A DNA stretch of 12,833 nucleotides from IMG/VR virus record IMGVR_UViG_3300029248_000207, positions 1-12,833 of that record; one strand, 5' to 3'. The notes under the pieces are model-generated. The model saw nothing but the letters and a program-made list of their open reading frames with translations, did not search any database and was not told the origin of the DNA. A program made the translations under genes and the position numbers. This DNA is from a virus (Duplodnaviria > Heunggongvirae > Uroviricota > Caudoviricetes). Positions 4,861 through 12,833 of the stretch are shown piece after piece (positions within the stretch are counted from its first letter, which is position 1; each line of letters starts with the position of its first letter).

Positions 4861-5223
4861 GGGGCTGATTCTGGATTCGACGGGATTTGCGAAACCCAAG
4901 GTGCATGCCGAGGGGCGGTTGGCCTCGTAAAAAGCCGCAAAAAATAGTCGCAAACGACGAAAACTACGCTTTAGCAGCTTAATAACCTGCTTAGAGCCCT
5001 CTCTCCCTAGCCTCCGCTCTTAGGACGGGGATCAAGAGAGGTCAAACCCAAAAGAGATCGCGTGGAAGCCCTGCCTGGGGTTGAAGCGTTAAAACTTAAT
5101 CAGGCTAGTTTGTTAGTGGCGTGTCCGTCCGCAGCTGGCAAGCGAATGTAAAGACTGACTAAGCATGTAGTACCGAGGATGTAGGAATTTCGGACGCGGG
5201 TTCAACTCCCGCCAGCTCCACCA
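4861..5223 (+). ncRNA. ssrA: tmRNA (SsrA), 363 nt
   Basis: Starts GGGGCTGATTCTGGATTCGACGGG, ends GCCAGCTCCACCA. Internal tag reading frame at 4950..4982 encodes ANDENYALAA followed by a stop. tRNA-like 3' end (GGTTCAACTCCCGCC). Confidence 0.95.
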
Positions 5224-5406: not shown

Positions 5407-6612
5407 ATGGCGCGCATCACACGCCCCCTCACTAACAACGAGATCCTTAAAGCTAAACCCCGAGAAAAAGATTTCACTCTGCATGATGGGGACGGCCTGT
5501 TCTTACTCGTGAAAACATCTGGTAAAAAGCTCTGGCGCTTCCGATACCAACGTCCAGTAAGTAATAGCCGAACTAACCTGAGTCTCGGCTCATACCCTGC
5601 CCTTACACTCGCAGCAGCTCGTCAGATACGCGACCAATATTTGGCTACGCTCGCGCAGGGGATGGATCCGCAACAGCAACAAGAGCAAGCATCAGAGCAA
5701 CGTCAGATTGAGCTGGATAGCATTTTCTCAACTGTGGCCTCCAACTGGTTCAAAATGAAGAGCAAAAGCGTCACAGAGGACTACGCGAAGGATATTTGGC
5801 GTTCTCTAGATAAAGACGTATTCCCAGCAATAGGCGCGATACCTGTTCAGGAGATTAAGGCCAGAACGATAGTTGAAGCATTGGAACCAATCAAAGCACG
5901 CGGCGCATTAGAGACTGTTCGTCGCCTGGTCCAGCGCATTAACGAAATAATGATTTACGCAGTCAACACCGGNNNNNNNNNNNNNNNNNNNNNNNNNNNN
6001 NNATCAGGTGTTGGAATGGCATTTGAGAAACCCAAAAAGCAGAACATGCCCACGCTACGACCAGAAGAATTACCTAAGCTGATGCGTTCTCTGGTCATGT
6101 CGAATCTGTCTGTTTCGACTCGATGTCTTATTGAGTGGCAGCTCCTGACCCTAGTGCGCCCTTCTGAGGCTTCTGGTGCTCGGTGGGTCGAGATCGATCT
6201 CGATGCCAAACTCTGGACGATTCCCGCCGAACGAATGAAGGCTAAGCGTGAACACATTGTCCCTTTGTCACCTCAGGCTTTAGATATTTTGGAAGTAATG
6301 AAGCCAATCAGCGCTCATCGTGAACATATTTTCCCTAGTAGAAATGATCCAAAGCGGCCGATGAATAGTCAGACTGCTAATGCTGCTTTAAAACGTATAG
6401 GTTATGGTGGAAAATTAGTTGCACATGGTTTACGTTCAATAGCCAGTACAGCTCTCAACGAATCTAATTTTAATTCTGATGTGATTGAGTCTGCGCTGGC
6501 ACACACAGATAAGAATGAGGTTAGGAAAGCGTACAATCGGTCCATTTATTTGAAACAAAGAGTTGAGCTAATGGACTGGTGGGGTAATTTTGTTATGATT
6601 ACTAATAGATGA
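5407..6612 (+). CDS. intA: P4-family tyrosine integrase (IntA-like)
   Basis: 401-aa ORF next to ssrA; N-terminal arm-binding-type domain and C-terminal catalytic region with HGLRSIA and a terminal Tyr region (KAYNRS). A 30-nt N-run at 5973..6002 is in frame (10 unknown codons). Confidence 0.9.
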   Translation: MARITRPLTNNEILKAKPREKDFTLHDGDGLFLLVKTSGKKLWRFRYQRPVSNSRTNLSLGSYPALTLAAARQIRDQYLATLAQGMDPQQQQEQASEQRQIELDSIFSTVASNWFKMKSKSVTEDYAKDIWRSLDKDVFPAIGAIPVQEIKARTIVEALEPIKARGALETVRRLVQRINEIMIYAVNTXXXXXXXXXXXSGVGMAFEKPKKQNMPTLRPEELPKLMRSLVMSNLSVSTRCLIEWQLLTLVRPSEASGARWVEIDLDAKLWTIPAERMKAKREHIVPLSPQALDILEVMKPISAHREHIFPSRNDPKRPMNSQTANAALKRIGYGGKLVAHGLRSIASTALNESNFNSDVIESALAHTDKNEVRKAYNRSIYLKQRVELMDWWGNFVMITNR

Positions 6613-6625
6613 TAAAGGACTGCAC

Positions 6626-8068
6626 ATGAGCACAGTAAAAAATATTGATACCGTTTCATCAAACTTTAACATTTCGCCATCAATTCTTGATCAACTTGAT
6701 GTTGTTGATGTTTTATTAGAGTCAGATACGTTGCTTTTCATTGACCCTATGCTCCTCCCTGAAAGTAAGCATCCTGAAATGAAAGTGGATGCTGATAAGA
6801 AATACATAGATACTTTCACAAGTATCATTAAATTACTTAAAGCATCTAAGGTTCAGAATGATAATGATGTTGCTTGGAAGGCAGCCAAAAAGTTATTTTC
6901 ATTTTCCGAAATAGGATGGACATGTTTGGGTTATGGCTCATCAGCCAAAGGCTCAGGATTCGGGCCACACCTTGTGAACACAACAATGAATACTGCCTAT
7001 CAAATTATCAACATGGATATTGATGATCCTGACTTATTTATGGTCATGTCGTTATTTGAAGAAGGTATTGGGGCTGATAGAATTAGTGACATGACTACAA
7101 ATATAATATTTGAGTCCTTAGTGAAATTCTCAGAAAGAGTTAATCAAACCCTTCAAATCCCGACAAAAGAATTTTCTTTTAAAGGGAAAAAGTACATTGC
7201 CCCTCATAATCCATTAACAGATAAACCATTAATATTAGTTCCTAAAGATGTTGTCCGTGATTTGCCTATATCCACTGACTGGAGCGGTGCAGTCAGTACA
7301 ATGAAAGAAAACACGGACCTACGTGACAGAATTAATACCAACATTGGTAAACTGCTCGCATCAATGACCCAAAAAGAAAAAGCTGAAGCCAAGCGACGAG
7401 CTTTAGAGAAAAAAGAATATTTTGAAGACCTCCTAGAATTAATAAAAGAAGTAGAAAAAGAGCCTTACGATTTTAAAGCTGATAAGAATGGTGAATTATT
7501 TTGGTCAAGACTTGTATCTTCAATAGATAAAAAATACCCTTTCAATCTTTCTAAGTTTAATAAAAAACTAACCTTAGATGATGTAGAAAATTTGGTTGAT
7601 GAGATATTAACCCAATTCAAAGATCTAATTGAAAACAAAGGTCTATGGAAGGAAATGTGGGCAGATGATAAAAAACCAAGAAAAGAAAAAGCGGCTCAAC
7701 GTTTACTTTTTGCAGTAGCTTATTCATATTGCAAAGCCAATAACTTAGACATTAGCCCTGAGGCTGACTCTGGTAATGGACCTGTTGACTTCAAAGTCTC
7801 GCAAGGATTCGAGCAGAAAGTTTTAGTTGAAGTTAAGTTATCATCCAATGGTAAATTACTGCACGGATATGAAAAGCAATTAGAAATTTATAGAAATGGT
7901 GATGATACAGATCGAGCATTTTTCGTAATAGTTGATATCGGTCATTTAGGAGAAAAATACCAAAAGGTCCAGCAGGCTAGAATTGCAGCAGAAAATGAAG
8001 GTTTAAGAGCCTCAAAGATTATTCATATTGATGCACAACAAAAAGACTCTGCGAGCATTCGTATCTAG
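6626..8068 (+). CDS. Cargo protein of unknown function with a C-terminal PD-(D/E)xK nuclease-like domain; candidate anti-phage defence gene
   Basis: 480-aa ORF, uninterrupted and AT-rich compared with its neighbours; RBS-like aaggac upstream. C-terminal motifs: GPVDF (Asp codon at 7787..7789), VEVK (Glu at 7829..7831, Lys at 7835..7837), then QLEIY (QxxxY, as in RecB/Cas4-type nucleases). The N-terminal ~350 aa are unrecognised, with a Gly-rich patch (GYGSSAKGSGFG) and a charged coiled-coil-like stretch. It lies between int and cos/psu. Confidence 0.8.
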   Translation: MSTVKNIDTVSSNFNISPSILDQLDVVDVLLESDTLLFIDPMLLPESKHPEMKVDADKKYIDTFTSIIKLLKASKVQNDNDVAWKAAKKLFSFSEIGWTCLGYGSSAKGSGFGPHLVNTTMNTAYQIINMDIDDPDLFMVMSLFEEGIGADRISDMTTNIIFESLVKFSERVNQTLQIPTKEFSFKGKKYIAPHNPLTDKPLILVPKDVVRDLPISTDWSGAVSTMKENTDLRDRINTNIGKLLASMTQKEKAEAKRRALEKKEYFEDLLELIKEVEKEPYDFKADKNGELFWSRLVSSIDKKYPFNLSKFNKKLTLDDVENLVDEILTQFKDLIENKGLWKEMWADDKKPRKEKAAQRLLFAVAYSYCKANNLDISPEADSGNGPVDFKVSQGFEQKVLVEVKLSSNGKLLHGYEKQLEIYRNGDDTDRAFFVIVDIGHLGEKYQKVQQARIAAENEGLRASKIIHIDAQQKDSASIRI

Positions 8069-8340: not shown

Positions 8341-8911
8341 CTAGCGTGCGGCCAGTTCTGCACGTCGGCGGGTGTAAATCAGGTTCTGTGCTGGGGTGAA
8401 TTTCTGGCGATTATCATCCCGCGAAGCCGCATCAGGCCTGAATCCGATGCCCGTTAAAATATCGCTGTCCTGCGCGGAATAATTAATTTTTTCACCTGCG
8501 GCCAGCCACACCGACAGGGCTTCACGCAGATAATCAACCGAGTGCTGCATGGCGCTCTGTTTTACTGCGGGAAGCTGTTCGTTATACCCCATCAGCTCAG
8601 GTGCCAGCGTGGCGGCCAGCTCCGCGCCGTGCTGCTGCATAAAGTCATGGAGCCGGTTGCGGATGCTGATGTGCTGCACCTCCTCATGTGAGCGGATATN
8701 NNNNNNNNNCGGCGGCCTGATTAATTTCCCACTTTTTCACGTCGATATTGTCGCGCAAATCCTGCATTCTGAGCGGAATTTGTTCGTCACCGGCAAGGAG
8801 CTGTTCACGGTATTCCCGTTCAAGGTCTGCCAGTTCGGCTTTACGTTTCAGCCAGGTGTTTTTGTTCGTCTGACAGGCCTCAAAGGCCTGCTGTATGGTC
8901 ACAGTGGTCAC
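8341..8911 (-). CDS. psu: Polarity suppression protein Psu (capsid decoration / Rho antagonist), interrupted by a 10-nt N-run
   Basis: Two minus-strand ORFs (8684..8911, 75 aa; 8341..8679, 112 aa) together read like P4 Psu (MTTVTIQQAFEACQTNKN...EINQAA [gap] IRSHEEVQHISIRNRLHDFMQQHG...). GTG start at 8911, preceded by aggagag. The N-run at 8700..8709 separates the halves, which are in different frames as written. Confidence 0.8.
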
Positions 8912-8926: not shown

Positions 8927-9166
8927 TTAATGCCGGAACGGCGAGCTGTAGCAGCCCTGTACTTTACGCGGCGGCGGTGGCGTCACCGGGGCGGGGTCGG
9001 GTTTCTCCGGTGCGGCACGTATCACACCGTCAACCGACTCGATGGTGCGGAAAGTGGCCGAGCATTCGATATTGGTACACTGGTGATAACGCTGTTTGAC
9101 GTTTTCCGACAGATAACGGCTGGTACGGACGTGCGCGGTCTTTTTGCAGAACGGGCAGTGAAACAT
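8927..9166 (-). CDS. ogr: Ogr/Delta-family zinc-finger late-gene transcriptional activator (single-domain, Ogr-sized)
   Basis: 79-aa ORF MFHCPFCKKTAHVRTSRYLSENVKQRYHQCTNIECSATF...; the CxxC...CxxxxC arrangement and sequence closely resemble P2 Ogr / P4 Delta. RBS gaggg upstream; the sid stop codon (9170..9172) is 3 nt upstream of the start. Confidence 0.88.
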   Translation of the reverse strand: MFHCPFCKKTAHVRTSRYLSENVKQRYHQCTNIECSATFRTIESVDGVIRAAPEKPDPAPVTPPPPRKVQGCYSSPFRH

Positions 9167-9169
9167 GAT

Positions 9170-9913
9170 TCAGCCCTCTGCCTGTTCGTGGTCTTTTGCG
9201 GCCAGTTCAGCGGCAAGCTTCATCCGTCTGGCCGGGCTTCTTAACAGCGCCATATCAACCCCGGTTATGACCGGGCGATTCATGCCCGTTACGGACAGAA
9301 CCGGCTCCTGCTCCATATCAAAATGATACAGGGCTGACTGCAGATTCAGGGCATCACCCAGCTCGCGGGTCACGGTCGCACGCGGCGAGGTTTCTCCGCT
9401 CATTTCCAGCGACCGTATACGCAACAGAAAGGCACGTAACAGTGCGGGGCTGATACCGGTCAGCGCCTTCTTCCACTCGCTGTTGGCGTAGGTAGTGAAC
9501 GCTTTTTCATGGGCGCTGATGTAAGCCGTACCGGAGGAGCATGCGCCAAGCATGGCGAGGTTTTTGTCTTTCTCCAGCTCGGTAATCAGACCGGTAAACT
9601 CATCAGCCAGTTCGCGGCTGGCGATACGTTTACTGTGTTCAGCTTTCAGTTCAGGAGTGAGGTTGCCGCGCAGGGTTCGAAAGCGGCTGCGCCAGTCCTG
9701 TTCGGCCTGTGCACTTTCACTGAGCGCGGTCTGTCGTTCCTGCTCACAACGCTGAATGGAAGCCTCAATGTCGCTGAGTTTACCCATGCTGGCCGAGTGT
9801 GCGTCTTTTGCTTCGTTAAGTGCGGCCAGCGCACCGGCAATACGTTGTTCCGCGCCTTCATCCTGTTTACTGATAACGGTCTGCATGGCTTTGATAATGA
9901 GTTCGGGTTTCAT
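9170..9913 (-). CDS. sid: Sid-like capsid size determination (external scaffold) protein
   Basis: Minus-strand ORF in the sid position of the sid-delta-psu operon. Start chosen at the ATG giving MKPELIIKAM (247 aa, close to P4 Sid length), with ggag upstream. The in-frame ATG at 9979 (269 aa) is the alternative, but it would start only 6 bp from the activator dyad. Confidence 0.72.
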   Translation of the reverse strand: MKPELIIKAMQTVISKQDEGAEQRIAGALAALNEAKDAHSASMGKLSDIEASIQRCEQERQTALSESAQAEQDWRSRFRTLRGNLTPELKAEHSKRIASRELADEFTGLITELEKDKNLAMLGACSSGTAYISAHEKAFTTYANSEWKKALTGISPALLRAFLLRIRSLEMSGETSPRATVTRELGDALNLQSALYHFDMEQEPVLSVTGMNRPVITGVDMALLRSPARRMKLAAELAAKDHEQAEG

Positions 9914-9984
9914 GTTCAGGTTCTCCGTATGTTCAACCTGAAATGATTCTGACGCCTCCTGCACAACAACACGATTCATTGCCG

Positions 9985-10002
9985 TTGTCAGAGTGCTGGC
10001 AC
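9985..10002. promoter_or_regulatory. TGT-N12-ACA dyad: candidate Ogr/Delta binding site of the late promoter driving sid-ogr-psu
   Basis: TGTcagagtgctggcACA. P2/P4 late promoters carry a TGT-N12-ACA activator site centred near -55. This dyad is about 80 bp upstream of the proposed sid start at 9913. Confidence 0.55.
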
Positions 10003-10081
10003 AAACAGACCTTAAAATCAGGCTGGCCAGAGAAAGGTCGCAGGAAAACCTTACTCACCGTTTGTTTTTTTACTTATAACT

Positions 10082-10184
10082 ATTCACCACTGTTCACCTT
10101 AAATAAAAAGATAAGTAATACAGCAAGTTAAATGGTGAACAGTTGAAGGTCTGACTGTTCACCGTCTGTTCACCACTGTTCACC
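10082..10184. repeat. Cluster of TGTTCACC octamer iterons (candidate alpha-protein binding sites / replication origin)
   Basis: Exact TGTTCACC at 10091..10098, 10156..10163, 10167..10174 and 10177..10184 (the last three spaced 11 and 10 bp apart). Inverted copy GGTGAACA at 10134..10141. Degenerate ATTCACC at 10082..10088. Confidence 0.7.
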
Positions 10185-10264
10185 CTTCAGTTTTGCTCTG
10201 GCTATATCATCTAGACTTTATTACGATTAAAAACGAAAAGTATATAACTAAAAGAGATATTAAT

Positions 10265-10325
10265 TGCTGCATTGTAATGCAGTGATTTGCATATGTTTGC
10301 CAGCGTTTGCCTTTGTTTGCCAGAG
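10265..10325. promoter_or_regulatory. Palindrome plus three phased GTTTGCC repeats upstream of vis/alpA (candidate operator of the leftward-operon promoter)
   Basis: CTGCATTgtAATGCAG at 10267..10282 (7-bp perfect arms, 2-bp spacer). GTTTGCC at 10295..10301, 10305..10311 and 10315..10321, with 10-bp periodicity. Confidence 0.4.
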
Positions 10326-10446
10326 CGAAAAGTCAATGTTTGTCCGAAAATCTCACATGACCTGAGGGAAAATATAAACATAATAAGGAGCTACCCGAAG
10401 CCGGACGGACACGACCGGCACTGTATGGACTTTGTGAGGTAGCCCG

Positions 10447-10713
10447 ATGCACACCGCTTTTTCTTCCCCGTCTTCTGCCCCTGCCGCGCCGCTGATGCCG
10501 GTTTCTGATACCGTTCACGAGCGCTTTATCCGTCTGCCCGAAGTGATGCATCTGTGCGGCCTGTCCCGCTCGACCATTTACGACCTCATCAGCCGGGAAG
10601 CCTTCCCGAAACAAATCTCCCTCGGCGGAAAAAACGTGGCGTGGGCGCAGTCTGAAATCACTGCATGGATGGCGGATCGCATTGCCGAACGTAACCGGGG
10701 CTATGACGCATGA
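10447..10713 (+). CDS. alpA: AlpA/Vis-family phage regulatory protein (excisionase-like HTH)
   Basis: 88-aa ORF (P4 Vis is orf88); the RLPEVMHLCGLSRSTIYDLISREAFPKQISLGGKNVAWAQSEITAWMADR region resembles the AlpA/Vis winged-helix; RBS gagg 8 nt upstream. Confidence 0.85.
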   Translation: MHTAFSSPSSAPAAPLMPVSDTVHERFIRLPEVMHLCGLSRSTIYDLISREAFPKQISLGGKNVAWAQSEITAWMADRIAERNRGYDA

Positions 10714-10840
10714 TGATGGCCGCTCAGCAAAAAGCCCCTTTTTCTGGCTTGCTTCTTTTCGCCGTTTCCAGGTATAGTTTTCCCGCTGTCGCAAAATCGG
10801 CAGCCGGGCGTAGGAACCCGTGTAATTCACAGGCGACAAC

Positions 10841-10865
10841 AGACGCGCCATGCGTCTTTTTTTAC
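10841..10865 (+). terminator. Rho-independent terminator inside the immunity-like region
   Basis: AGACGCgccatGCGTCTtttttttt: 6-bp GC-rich stem plus T8, about 25 nt downstream of the first GCGTAGGAAC element. Confidence 0.55.
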
Positions 10866-10995
10866 GTCGTTGCTCAGGCACACCCATTTTTCGGGCTGTA
10901 GCCCCTGTCAGATAATGGTGGTCCGGGCGGGGCAGCTTTCGGGCTGGCCGGTATTCTGTGAAGCCGGTATTCCTACCCCCGTTCGGGTCACCACC
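10866..10995 (+). ncRNA. Candidate P4 CI-like immunity RNA region (contains the seqB-like element); ends undetermined
   Basis: No plausible ORF here. CCGGTATTCCTAC (10964..10976) is complementary to GTAGGAACTCCGG (11003..11015; 11 of 13) and partly to GCGTAGGAAC (10808..10817). CCGGTATTC is also duplicated at 10948..10956. This matches the seqA/seqB/seqC logic of P4 immunity. Confidence 0.3.
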
Positions 10996-11052
10996 CATGA
11001 GCGTAGGAACTCCGGTGGTGGCAATAACCGCTATTCACAGGAGGTTGCCATC

Positions 11053-11247
11053 ATGGCTACGACCCTCACCCCGTCACACCCGCAGTTTGTCTTTGTGTTT
11101 GCCGCCGTTCGTCGCGCAGACCGTAAACCCCGTATTTGCATGCTGCGCACCGTTGCCGGTGACGAGCACGCCGCACGCCTTTCCCTCGTTCGCGATTACA
11201 TCCTCTCGTTCGCTGGCCGTTTGCCGGTTCTGGAGGTGCGCGCATGA
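11053..11247 (+). CDS. Hypothetical small protein (P4-like early operon)
   Basis: 64-aa reading from an ATG preceded by a strong RBS (cacAGGAGGttgccatcATG); its stop overlaps the next start (ATGA at 11244..11247). The longer six-frame ORF from 10870 has no RBS. Confidence 0.55.
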
Positions 11248-11471
11248 GACACACCACCATTACCGCCCGTGACCTCGAATGTCTGGAGCATATGCGCAAC
11301 GTCGGCCAGCTCGTCGGCGACCTGATGCAGGTGCAGGACTGCGCCACCGTTCGTCGTGACCCGACGCAGCAGTTACAGCTCACCTCCGTGATTTACCTCA
11401 TGACCGCCCAGCTCGACGGCGTGGTCGAACGCTGCAATCAGCACTGGCTGACCGGGGAGAGCAACGTATGA
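11244..11471 (+). CDS. Hypothetical small protein (position corresponds to the epsilon/anti-repressor region of P4-like elements)
   Basis: 75-aa ORF translationally coupled at both ends (ATGA overlaps at 11244 and 11468); no recognisable motif. Confidence 0.5.
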
Positions 11472-11788
11472 AAAAGCCATTACCGCCCGTATTACGCGCC
11501 GCGCTGTATCGTCGCGCCGTGGCCTGTGCATGGCTGACCCTGTGCGAACGCCAGCACCGCTACCCGCACCTCACCCTCGACGCGCTGGAAAGCGCCATTG
11601 CGACCGAGCTGGAGGGCTTCTATCTGCGCCAGCATGGCGAGGAAAAAGGCCGTCAGATTGCCTGTGCCCTGCTTGAAGATTTAATGGAAGCCGGACCACT
11701 CAAAGCCGCCCCGTCGCTGTCCTTTCTCGGGCTGGCCGTGATGGATGAGCTTTGCGCCCGTCATATCACCGCACCGGTACTGCACTGA
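11468..11788 (+). CDS. Hypothetical protein, 106 aa, immediately upstream of the primase
   Basis: ORF coupled to the upstream gene and ending 14 nt before the primase start; P4 has an orf106 in the equivalent position, but I cannot confirm sequence similarity. Confidence 0.5.
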
Positions 11789-11802: not shown

Positions 11803-12833
11803 ATGAAAATGAACGTAACAGAAACGGTAAAACAGGCGTGCGGCCACTGGCCGCGCATTCTCCCTGCGCTGGGTGTGAAGGTGATTAAAAACCGCCATCA
11901 GTCCTGCCCGGTGTGCGGTGGCTCTGACCGCTTCCGCTTTGACGATAAAGAGGGGCGCGGGACGTGGTTCTGTAACCAGTGCGGCGCGGGTGACGGACTT
12001 AAGCTGGTAGAAAAAGTGTTTGGCGTGACCCCGTCTGAGGCCGCCGGGAAGGTGAATGCCGTGACCGGCAACCTGCCGCCGGTTGCCCCGGAAGTGATTG
12101 CGGTCGCAGAGGCTGAAACGGAGGCCGACCGCAAAGCGGCGGCCGCGCTGGCCGTCAGGCTCATGGAGAAAACCCGACCGGCCACCGGCAATGCCTACCT
12201 CACCTGCAAGGGTTTCCCCGCTCTGGAATGTCTGACGCTCACCGCCATGCATAAAACCGGCGGCGTGACGTTCCGCGCCGGGGATGTGGTTGTCCCGCTG
12301 TATGACGATACCGGCGTACTGGTTAACCTTCAGCTTATCAATGCAGACGGTCTCAAACGCACCCTGAAAGGCGGTCAGGTCAAAGGGACATGTCATATCA
12401 TCGAAGGGAAAAAACAGGCCGGAAAACGCCTGTGGATTGCGGAGGGTTATGCGACCGCGCTCACCGTGCATCACCTGACCGGGGAAACCGTCATGGTGGC
12501 GCTGTCCTCAGTAAACCTCCTTTCTCTGGCGAGCCTTGCCCGTCAGAAGTCCCCGGCCTGTCAGATAGTGCTTGCCGCCGACCGTGACCTGAACGGCGAT
12601 GGCCAGAACAAAGCCACAGCGGCCGCAGACGCCTGTGAGGGCGTTGTTGCCCTGCCACCGGTATTCGGTGACTGGAATGATGCGTTTATACAGTACGGCG
12701 AGGAAGCCACGCGGAAAGCGATTTATGACGCTATCCGGCCACCGGCGCAAAGTCCGTTTGATACCATGAGCGAAGCCGAATTTACCGCCATGAGCGCCAG
12801 CGACAAGGCCTTGCGGGTGCATGAGCATTACGG
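11803..12833 (+). CDS. P4 alpha-like primase(-helicase), N-terminal part; continues past the window end
   Basis: Open frame from the ATG at 11803 (RBS gggag upstream) to the window end; it is absent from the ORF track because it has no stop in the window. Zinc-binding motif CPVCGGSDRFRF...WFCNQCG and a TOPRIM-like region (WIAEGYATALTV..., VLAADRDLNGDG). Confidence 0.85.
   Translation, partial: MKMNVTETVKQACGHWPRILPALGVKVIKNRHQSCPVCGGSDRFRFDDKEGRGTWFCNQCGAGDGLKLVEKVFGVTPSEAAGKVNAVTGNLPPVAPEVIAVAEAETEADRKAAAALAVRLMEKTRPATGNAYLTCKGFPALECLTLTAMHKTGGVTFRAGDVVVPLYDDTGVLVNLQLINADGLKRTLKGGQVKGTCHIIEGKKQAGKRLWIAEGYATALTVHHLTGETVMVALSSVNLLSLASLARQKSPACQIVLAADRDLNGDGQNKATAAADACEGVVALPPVFGDWNDAFIQYGEEATRKAIYDAIRPPAQSPFDTMSEAEFTAMSASDKALRVHEHY

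What the first reader, a model, noticed from the sequence alone, without database searches (positions are those of the whole stretch)
10082..10184. Iteron cluster of TGTTCACC octamers between the late promoter and vis: candidate replication origin
There are four exact direct copies, one inverted copy and one degenerate copy within about 100 bp, three of them phased at one helical turn. As I recall it, TGTTCACC is the type I iteron bound by P4 alpha protein at ori and crr. The partial alpha gene in the window has the matching primase-type N-terminus.
Basis: partly seen in the sequence, partly recalled or inferred. Interest (0 to 1): 0.5.

Follow-up and report, generated by a model that had tools for sequence, protein, structure and literature searches.

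The report
P4-type satellite prophage replication origin
The repeated TGTTCACC octamers are real and are the replication origin of a P4-like satellite prophage sitting next to the E. coli tmRNA gene, laid out exactly like the long-known origin of phage P4, so the finding is correct but ordinary.

Summary
Confirmed and explained. The window holds five exact TGTTCACC copies, four direct and one inverted, against 0.39 expected by chance. Start-to-start spacing is 10/43/22/11/10 bp, identical to the six annotated 'ori type 1 repeats' of phage P4 (X51522).

The cluster lies in the same place as in P4, between sid and vis. The element is a P4-like satellite prophage integrated at ssrA, with psu-delta-sid, vis, CI RNA, cnr and alpha in P4 order. 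The window's alpha fragment has the primase zinc ribbon and Toprim domains.

A 99.6% identical complete copy (E. coli KMi029) has a 777-aa alpha. Its C-terminal origin-binding domain is 94% identical to the solved P4 domain (1KA8). It also has a crr region downstream of alpha carrying the same octamers.

The cluster is conserved across Enterobacterales: it is present in 31 of 31 loci whose alpha is at least 80% identical, and iteron columns are 94% conserved.

This is an orthologue of P4 ori1, with low novelty.

Side result: the adjacent decamer array (10286-10325) replaces P4's 'type 2 repeats', which are P2 Cox boxes, with boxes like the Apl sites of phage 186. This suggests sensing of a different helper.

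The parts
10081..10088 (+). Iteron site 1, TATTCACC. It differs by one base from TGTTCACC and is the commonest form of this site in the family.
   Evidence: A at position 2 in 30 of 41 unique sequences; TATTCACC is itself annotated as a type 1 repeat in P4 crr
10091..10098 (+). Iteron site 2, TGTTCACC
   Evidence: aligns to P4 type 1 repeat 9396-9403
10099..10133 (.). A 35-bp spacer, 83% A+T, between the converging sites 2 and 3. It is the candidate DNA-melting region (inferred).
   Evidence: 87% column conservation over 41 unique sequences from many genera
10134..10141 (-). Iteron site 3, TGTTCACC, the inverted copy
   Evidence: aligns to the single inverted P4 type 1 repeat 9353-9360
10156..10163 (+). 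Iteron site 4, TGTTCACC
10167..10174 (+). Iteron site 5, TGTTCACC
10177..10184 (+). Iteron site 6, TGTTCACC
10200..10280 (.). Second A+T-rich stretch (GC 20-28%), between the iterons and the decamer array
10286..10325 (+). Four tandem decamers (TTTGCAtatg TTTGCCAgcg TTTGCCTttg TTTGCCAgag) where P4 has its 'ori type 2 repeats'. They are probably a helper-protein (186 Apl-type) operator upstream of the PLL promoter rather than a replication element.
9986..10003 (.). TGT-N12-ACA dyad of the Ogr/Delta-dependent late promoter type, on the sid side of the iterons.
   Evidence: Read directly. The homologous P4 position keeps the dyad. The assignment to Psid rests on established knowledge of P2/P4 late promoters.
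9170..9916 (-). sid homologue (248 aa), first gene of the leftward late operon sid-delta-psu
10447..10713 (+). vis (AlpA family, 88 aa, 70% identical to P4 ORF88/Vis)
11468..11788 (+). Homologue of P4 ORF106 (106 aa, 92% identical, Pfam DUF5375). From memory, ORF106 is cnr, the copy-number regulator that acts on alpha.
11803..12833 (+). alpha gene, first 343 codons (runs off the window end): primase zinc ribbon plus Toprim, 81% identical to P4 alpha

Best explanation
The cluster is the orthologue of ori (ori1) of satellite phage P4, inside a P4-like satellite prophage integrated at the 3' end of ssrA.

Proposed mechanism, by homology with P4:
- The element's own alpha protein carries a primase, a superfamily-3 helicase and a C-terminal winged-helix origin-binding domain.
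- Alpha binds the six (A/T)CT[G/A]TTCACC sites here and the same sites in crr, just downstream of the alpha gene (outside this window).
- Alpha opens the A+T-rich DNA next to or between the sites, loads itself as the helicase and lays the first primers. Replication then proceeds without the host initiator.
- The ORF106 product encoded just upstream of alpha (Cnr in P4, from memory) damps initiation.

Shown here:
- The sites exist and are far beyond chance.
- Their number, orientation, spacing and genomic position equal those of the annotated P4 origin.
- A near-identical complete element carries the matching alpha DNA-binding domain and a crr with the same octamers.
- The sites are the most conserved part of the intergenic region across many genera.

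Inferred, not shown: alpha binding, the melting site and origin firing in this element.
For: - Five exact copies against 0.39 expected, and 0 of 200 shuffles reached 5.
- blastn of window 9900-10500 hits only P4 records (E 6e-45). The features under the match are 'origin of DNA replication' and 'ori type 1 repeat (x6)'.
- Site starts are spaced 10/43/22/11/10 bp in both the window and P4, with the third site inverted in both.
- The iteron block is the best-conserved part of the pairwise alignment.
- Gene order matches P4: psu, delta, sid | ori | vis, CI region, ORF106, alpha. Pfam finds Zn_Ribbon_Prim and Toprim in the alpha fragment.
- E. coli KMi029 carries the same element at 99.6% identity. 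Its alpha is 777 aa and 85% identical to P4 alpha. [quoted passage not shown]
- The KMi029 region 57-320 bp downstream of alpha holds two repeat units with TGTTCACC copies. These align to P4 crr at 83%.
- 1278 of 5426 complete E. coli genomes match the intergenic region. The weakest matches still cover window 10077-10183, which is the iterons.
- Among 80 alpha loci from other Enterobacterales, a cluster of at least 4 sites lies 1.5-2.8 kb upstream of alpha in 31 of 31 loci with alpha at least 80% identical. A cluster lies within 700 bp downstream in 32 of 45. There were none elsewhere and none in 1600 shuffles.
- Column conservation over 41 unique sequences is 94% for iterons and 58% for the right flank.
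- Use of ...CACC versus ...CACT variants tracks between ori and crr of the same element (rho 0.82, n=30). This fits one reader protein for both regions.
- There is no DnaA box in the region.
Against: - There is no binding or replication data for this element.
- The origin-binding domain of alpha and crr both lie outside the window. They are known only from a 99.6% identical relative.
- The element may be decaying. Relative to KMi029 it lacks 14 bp at about 10898, which splits the Icd-like ORF, and two masked N runs hide parts of int and psu.
- The ori-crr covariation is not corrected for shared ancestry.
- P4 is reported to have a second origin inside alpha (Tocchetti 1998 and Magnoni 2006, seen only as titles in the reference list of PMC6092414). 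ori1 may therefore not be the only start site.
Confidence: 0.9

Rival explanations
1. The octamers are mainly transcriptional operators for the two divergent late promoters (Psid leftward, PLL rightward), and origin function lies elsewhere, for example at an ori2-type site inside alpha.
For: - The cluster lies between sid and vis, flanked by a late-promoter dyad at 9986-10003 and by the helper-protein boxes upstream of vis.
- P4 is reported to have a second replicon (reference titles only).
Against: - The same octamers recur downstream of alpha (crr), where no promoter is expected, in KMi029 and in 32 of 45 related loci.
- The P4 record annotates these sites as the origin.
- Octamer variants co-vary between ori and crr.
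- A regulatory side effect of alpha occupancy is not excluded, but that would be in addition to origin function, not instead of it.
Confidence: 0.04
2. The cluster is a true P4-type origin by descent but is no longer used, because this prophage copy is defective.
For: - Relative to the KMi029 copy the window lacks 14 bp at about 10898, which splits the Icd-like ORF next to the CI RNA gene, and 4 bp at about 10343.
- There are no epsilon or orf151 homologues.
- Many P4-like prophages lack components (PMC8628076).
Against: - All six sites, the A+T spacer, ORF106 (cnr) and the first 343 codons of alpha are intact and match the family consensus.
- The N runs are masking, not mutations.
- The short indels may be assembly differences.
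Confidence: 0.12
3. The repeats are a chance or low-complexity feature with no function.
For: None beyond the A+T-rich surroundings.
Against: - 0 of 200 shuffles reached five copies.
- No cluster appeared in 1600 shuffles of related loci.
- Identical architecture is conserved across genera.
Confidence: 0.005

Closest known systems
ori (ori1) of satellite phage P4: six 'type 1' TGTTCACC repeats, X51522 9310-9413
   Same: - Same octamer.
- Six sites, with the third inverted.
- Identical 10/43/22/11/10 bp spacing.
- Same A+T-rich spacer sequence.
- Same position between sid and vis.
- Same cognate alpha and ORF106 (cnr) genes.

   Different: - Site 1 is TATTCACC, which is the family norm.
- The flanks are diverged, giving 79% identity over the region.
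- P4's three 'type 2' decamers are replaced by unrelated TTTGCCA decamers.
- The host element differs: it is integrated at ssrA, its int is 35% and its sid 31% identical to P4, delta is single-domain, and there is no epsilon or orf151.
P4 crr (cis replication region): two 120-bp repeats with type 1 octamers downstream of alpha
   Same: It uses the same octamer family. The complete KMi029 copy of this element has a crr that aligns to P4 crr at 83%.
   Different: crr is a different locus from the finding and lies beyond the window end. Its sites are arranged differently, in two repeat units with mixed orientations.
Iteron origins of plasmids and of E. coli PICI satellites (pri-rep-ori modules)
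   Same: The logic is shared: direct repeats bound by the element's own initiator flank an A+T-rich melting region. [quoted passage not shown]
   Different: The initiator family differs. P4 alpha is a DnaG-type primase plus SF3 helicase plus winged helix in one chain. The P4-type origin also needs a second distant iteron region (crr) and has no DnaA boxes.
P2 Cox boxes at the P4 PLL promoter, and Apl binding sites of phage 186 (relevant to the neighbouring decamer array, not to the octamers)
   Same: - Both are tandem 10-11 bp phased boxes.
- P4's 'type 2 repeats' contain exact cox-boxes TTAAA(G/C)NC(A/C) (consensus from PMC3936717).
- The window decamers share the TTTGCCA core of the Apl sites annotated in phage 186, and of a 186-like Yersinia phage.
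   Different: Binding of any Apl/Cox protein to the window array is untested, and its link to PLL activation is an analogy.

Membership tests
P4-type satellite origin (ori1) | Cluster of six type 1 octamers (TGTTCACC or a one-base variant), five direct and one inverted | tested here: met
   Five exact copies plus TATTCACC; the third site is inverted
P4-type satellite origin (ori1) | Site spacing as in P4 (10/43/22/11/10 bp start to start) | tested here: met
   Identical in the window, P4 and KMi029, and in many loci from other genera
P4-type satellite origin (ori1) | Sequence homology to the annotated P4 origin on alignment | tested here: met
   blastn E 6e-45 to X51522 under 'origin of DNA replication'; pairwise alignment A1
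P4-type satellite origin (ori1) | Location between the sid late operon and vis in a P4-like gene order | tested here: met
   tblastn of P4 proteins against the window; KMi029 annotation
P4-type satellite origin (ori1) | Cognate alpha protein: N-terminal DnaG-type primase | tested here: met
   Zn_Ribbon_Prim 1.4e-19 and Toprim_3 1.2e-13 in window 11803-12831; 81% identical to P4 alpha
P4-type satellite origin (ori1) | Cognate alpha protein: C-terminal winged-helix origin-binding domain | tested here: inconclusive
   This part of alpha is outside the window. In the 99.6% identical KMi029 element the domain is 94 of 100 identical to PDB 1KA8.
P4-type satellite origin (ori1) | Second iteron region (crr) downstream of alpha, required in cis | tested here: inconclusive
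   crr is outside the window. It is present in KMi029 and in 32 of 45 related loci.
P4-type satellite origin (ori1) | Type 2 decamer repeats (CCACTTAAAG-type) next to the type 1 repeats | tested here: not met
   The P4 decamer sequence is absent. A different decamer array occupies the site. In P4 these decamers coincide with P2 Cox boxes, so they are probably not part of the origin proper.
P4-type satellite origin (ori1) | Alpha binds the octamers and replication starts here | not testable with these tools
   Needs EMSA or footprinting and origin mapping
Cox/Apl operator arrays of P2/186-like helper phages (for 10286-10325 only) | At least four boxes phased at 10-11 bp, sharing the core of experimentally defined sites | tested here: met
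   The window has four boxes at 10-bp period with a TTTGCCA core. The same core occurs in the Apl sites annotated in phage 186 U32222 and in Yersinia phage GCS667 beside int and between cI and apl.
Cox/Apl operator arrays of P2/186-like helper phages (for 10286-10325 only) | Bound by the helper's Cox/Apl protein, with activation of the satellite PLL promoter | not testable with these tools
   This is an analogy with P2 Cox acting at P4 PLL (PMC3936717)
DnaA-dependent iteron origins (oriC or plasmid type) | DnaA boxes next to the iterons | tested here: not met
   No TTATNCACA, even with one mismatch, between 8037 and 10823

The most novel reading that the evidence does not exclude
The P4-type 'origin region' is a composite. 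The type 1 octamers are the true, invariant origin. The neighbouring 'type 2' decamers are not replication elements but a swappable helper-sensing operator.

In P4 these decamers are P2 Cox boxes. In this satellite they are 186-Apl-type boxes (TTTGCCA). In an element 98-100% identical to P4 in its proteins (L007) they are a third kind.

On this reading, satellites change which helper phage can wake them by exchanging this 30-40 bp cassette next to the origin. The element in this window would be tuned to 186-like (Eganvirus) helpers rather than to P2.
Probability: 0.4. Interest if true: 0.45.

Novelty: new member of a known kind. Interest (0 to 1): 0.12.

Why it matters
For the finding itself, little is new. 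It correctly marks the replication origin of one of the very common P4-like satellite prophages, whose origin has been known since the P4 sequence was annotated. That origin goes unannotated in RefSeq genomes (feature column 'none'). The invariant six-site layout could serve as a simple DNA signature for annotating these origins.

The side observation may matter more. The decamer cassette beside the origin differs between otherwise near-identical satellites and matches the operators of different helper-phage Cox/Apl proteins. If real, it gives a sequence-readable predictor of which helper can activate which satellite.

Tried and rejected
- **Full-text search for TGTTCACC.** It returned only primer hits and was useless.
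- **Classic P4 replication papers and the Cox-P4 paper.** PMC413647, PMC372931 and PMC287370 are not held. Alpha binding to type 1 iterons therefore rests on the GenBank annotation, on paper titles in reference lists and on my own knowledge.
- **Decamers as targets of the CI (C4-family) immunity RNA.** Rejected. The CI RNA and its seqA/seqC-like targets use (A/T)ATTCACAGG, not TTTGCC. P4 has no complement of its type 2 decamer near cI.
- **Decamers as Vis (excisionase) sites repeated near att.** No further copies were found near attL or attR, or elsewhere in the element.
- **Rigid-spacing scan for the six-site layout in all 80 loci.** It missed elements with small spacing changes, so it was replaced by a cluster count.
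- **Ogr/Delta TGT-N12-ACA dyad upstream of vis in the window.** Only N11 and N15 versions were found (N15 and N19 in KMi029), so the PLL activator site here is unresolved.
- **Position of the P4 leftward late transcript.** The older P4 record X02534 annotates a 5' untranslated region starting upstream of the iterons. This conflicts with the Cox-box position, which places PLL between the decamers and vis. I could not resolve this from held papers.
- **First version of the ori-crr covariation.** It included loci with too little upstream sequence, so it was recomputed on 30 clean loci.

Full report
**Observation.** The octamer TGTTCACC occurs five times in the 12,833-base window, and all five copies lie within 10091-10184. 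Four are on the + strand, starting at 10091, 10156, 10167 and 10177. One is on the - strand at 10134-10141. A dinucleotide-preserving shuffle expects 0.39 copies, and none of 200 shuffles reached five. A sixth copy with one change, TATTCACC, lies at 10081-10088. The last three copies are 11 and 10 bp apart. The repeat finder shows that the conserved unit is really ten bases, (A/T)CTGTTCACC.

**Context.**
- Bases 1 to about 5226 are E. coli chromosome (nadK, recN, bamE, ratA, smpB, ssrA). The tmRNA gene lies at 4861-5223.
- From there on the window holds a P4-like satellite prophage. On the + strand it has an integrase (5407-6612) and a 480-aa cargo ORF.
- On the - strand it has psu, a short delta and sid.
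- The iteron cluster follows. After it, on the + strand, come vis, the isrK-like and C4/CI RNA genes, a 75-aa ORF and the ORF106 homologue (cnr in P4, from memory).
- The first 343 codons of alpha run off the window end.
- Identity to P4 proteins is 92% for ORF106, 81% for alpha, 70% for Vis and only 31% for Sid.

**Comparison with P4.**
- A sensitive blastn of window 9900-10500 against 50,697 phage records hit only P4 records (E 6e-45). The features under the match are 'origin of DNA replication', 'ori type 1 repeat (x6)' and 'ori type 2 repeat (x3)'.
- The P4 record X51522 places its six type 1 repeats with start-to-start spacing of 10, 43, 22, 11 and 10 bp, with the third inverted. The window has exactly the same spacing and the same inverted third site.
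- All six P4 ori repeats read TGTTCACC. The repeats annotated in P4 crr include TATTCACC, TGTTCACA and TCTTCACC, so the window's site 1 is an accepted variant.
- In the pairwise alignment the iteron block and the A+T-rich spacer are almost identical, while the flanks diverge.

**The rest of the replicon.**
- The window's alpha fragment carries the primase zinc ribbon and Toprim domains.
- E. coli KMi029 carries the same element at 99.6% identity, complete. Its alpha is 777 aa and 85% identical to P4 alpha, rising to 98% in residues 701-750.
- The last 100 residues of KMi029 alpha match PDB 1KA8 at E 4e-62, with 94 of 100 residues identical. [quoted passage not shown]
- Starting 57 bp after the alpha stop codon, KMi029 has two repeat units that carry TGTTCACC-type octamers. 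They align to P4 crr at 83%.
- The element therefore has the full bipartite P4 arrangement of ori, alpha and crr. Only ori and the 5' part of alpha fall inside this window.

**Conservation across the family.**
- The sid-vis intergenic region matches 1278 of 5426 complete E. coli genomes. The weakest matches still cover query 88-194, which is window 10077-10183, exactly the iterons.
- A scan of one genome per species returned 80 loci encoding alpha relatives (58-98% identity) from Enterobacter, Citrobacter, Klebsiella, Raoultella, Kluyvera, Edwardsiella, Pantoea, Pectobacterium, Serratia, Yersinia and others.
- A cluster of at least four T[GA]TTCA[CT] sites lies 1.5-2.8 kb upstream of alpha in 31 of 31 loci with alpha at least 80% identical and enough flank.
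- A cluster lies within 700 bp downstream of alpha in 32 of 45 loci. No such cluster occurs anywhere else in these loci, nor in 1600 shuffles.
- Over 41 unique sequences, column conservation is 94% for iteron columns, 87% for the A+T spacer and 58% for the right flank. Site 1 has A at position 2 in 30 of the 41.
- Variation is concentrated at positions 2 and 8 of the octamer.
- The share of ...CACT versus ...CACC sites tracks between the ori and crr of the same element (rho 0.82, n=30). This is not corrected for shared ancestry, but it fits one protein reading both regions.
- In most of the Pantoea-group elements (alpha 69% identical) the enriched site is CTTCACC, at both places.

**Mechanism.** By homology with P4, alpha binds the octamers through its C-terminal winged helix at ori and crr. 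The five direct sites lie at offsets 0, 10, 75, 86 and 96 bp, which puts them on roughly one face of the helix. Sites 2 and 3 converge on a 35-bp spacer that is 83% A+T, and a second A+T-rich stretch follows at 10200-10280. One of these is the likely melting site, which is an inference. Alpha would then act as its own helicase and primase. The region has no DnaA box, in line with my recollection that P4 replication is independent of the host initiator. The functions of alpha are cited from PMC8628076 and its reference 15. Alpha binding to type 1 iterons, looping to crr and control by Cnr are my recollection of Ziegelin et al. 1993-1997, which I could not read.

**The neighbouring 'type 2' repeats.**
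- P4 annotates three decamers (9176-9205) as 'ori type 2 repeats'. The window has no such sequence. At the same distance from the iterons it has four different decamers: TTTGCAtatg TTTGCCAgcg TTTGCCTttg TTTGCCAgag (10286-10325).
- Across six elements the 10-bp period and a TT are kept, but the rest differs. L007 is 98-100% identical to P4 in every protein yet carries different decamers.
- The P4 decamers contain two exact P2 cox-boxes, TTAAA(G/C)NC(A/C), at 9180-9188 and 9190-9198, with weaker boxes in phase. The consensus, and the statement that Cox binds upstream of P4 PLL, come from PMC3936717.
- The window has no P2 cox-box there.
- The window decamers match a 186-like Yersinia phage beside its int gene: GTTTGCCAAT GTTTGCCAGC ATTTGCCAAT GTTTGCCATT. 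The same phage has six inverted copies between cI and apl.
- The phage 186 record annotates 'five binding sites for Apl at attP' and '7 binding sites for Apl' at pR-pL. Both carry the same TTTGCCA/TGGCAAA core.
- A scan of viral contigs for three phased GTTTGCC boxes found 59 contigs. At least 29 are P4-like satellites with the array about 150 bp upstream of vis, and 3 are 186-like phages with it beside int.
- My reading is that these decamers are the helper-sensing operator of PLL, not part of the origin, and that this satellite answers to a 186-type Apl. This is an inference. I found no paper on it in the held library.

**Position relative to the promoters.** A TGT-N12-ACA dyad of the Ogr/Delta type lies at 9986-10003, on the sid side. 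The Cox and Apl boxes lie on the vis side. The iterons therefore most likely sit between the divergent Psid and PLL promoters. The older record X02534 annotates a 5' untranslated region that would include the iterons. I could not settle this conflict.

**Rivals.**
- Chance is excluded.
- A purely regulatory role is unlikely, because the same sites recur at crr.
- The origin may be idle in this copy. Relative to KMi029 the window lacks 14 bp near 10898 and 4 bp near 10343. All origin parts are nonetheless intact.

**Verdict.** This is an orthologue of the P4 origin in a common family of satellite prophages (PMC8628076). It is a new member of a known kind, of low interest. The Apl-type decamer cassette beside it is the only part that may be new.

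Noticed in passing
window 10286-10325: Four tandem decamers with a TTTGCCA core sit where P4 has its 'type 2 repeats'. The P4 repeats are P2 Cox boxes. The window boxes match the annotated Apl sites of phage 186 and of a 186-like Yersinia phage. This suggests a swappable helper-sensing operator tuned to 186-type helpers.
   Followed up: partly
L007:6260-6300 versus P4 (L001:1829-1858): An E. coli element that is 98-100% identical to P4 in all proteins, and identical in all six iterons, has different decamers at the type 2 position (CCTTCAGAAC CCTTTGAGAC CCTTCAAGTC). This is a local hypervariable patch.
   Followed up: partly
window 5973-6002 and 8700-8709: Runs of N (30 and 10 bases) replace 21 and 6 bases of the KMi029 sequence, inside int and psu. 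This is masking in the source, not biology, but it splits psu into two listed ORFs.
   Followed up: yes
window about 10898 (and about 10343): Relative to the 99.6% identical KMi029 element the window lacks 14 bp (TGGTGCTTATTCCA) just upstream of the CI/C4 RNA gene, which splits the ORF that RefSeq calls Icd-like. It also lacks 4 bp in the vis upstream region. These may be real decay or assembly differences.
   Followed up: no
window 10785-10862 and 10911-10998: Rfam finds isrK (74.6 bits) and C4 antisense RNA (78.3 bits), which together form the P4-type CI immunity RNA module. Matching target-like sequences (A/T)ATTCACAGG lie at about 10824 and 11032.
   Followed up: partly
window 6626-8068: A 480-aa ORF lies between int and psu, the known defence hotspot of P4-like satellites. 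It has no Pfam hit and a weak PADLOC hit to the candidate system PDC-M36A (E 9.6e-14 over residues 21-214).
   Followed up: partly
window 10391-10443: A conserved GCTACC...GGTAGC stem encloses a CCGG hairpin directly upstream of the vis start codon and overlaps its Shine-Dalgarno sequence. It is kept in all six aligned elements, with a folding z-score of -2.1. It may be a leader structure of the PLL transcript.
   Followed up: partly
window 8927-9166 and 11244-11471: delta is a single 78-aa Ogr/Delta zinc-finger domain, against 166 aa in P4. There are no epsilon or orf151 homologues; a 75-aa ORF with no Pfam hit sits before the ORF106 (cnr) homologue.
   Followed up: no
L006, L018, L042, L045, L064, L065 (downstream of alpha): In several relatives the crr-type octamer cluster lies 0.7-3.1 kb downstream of alpha instead of about 60 bp. 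L006 has an annotated gene in between. This points to a second cargo insertion point between alpha and crr.
   Followed up: no
L053, L055, L056, L058, L076 (Pantoea group): In elements with alpha 69% identical, the enriched repeat is CTTCACC at both the ori and crr positions. This is a variant iteron that keeps the TTCACC core.
   Followed up: partly
L002 (X02534) 693-1104 versus X51522 9180-9198: The older P4 record annotates a 5' untranslated region that begins upstream of the iterons. The Cox-box position implies that PLL lies between the decamers and vis. The two annotations disagree on whether the iterons are transcribed.
   Followed up: partly
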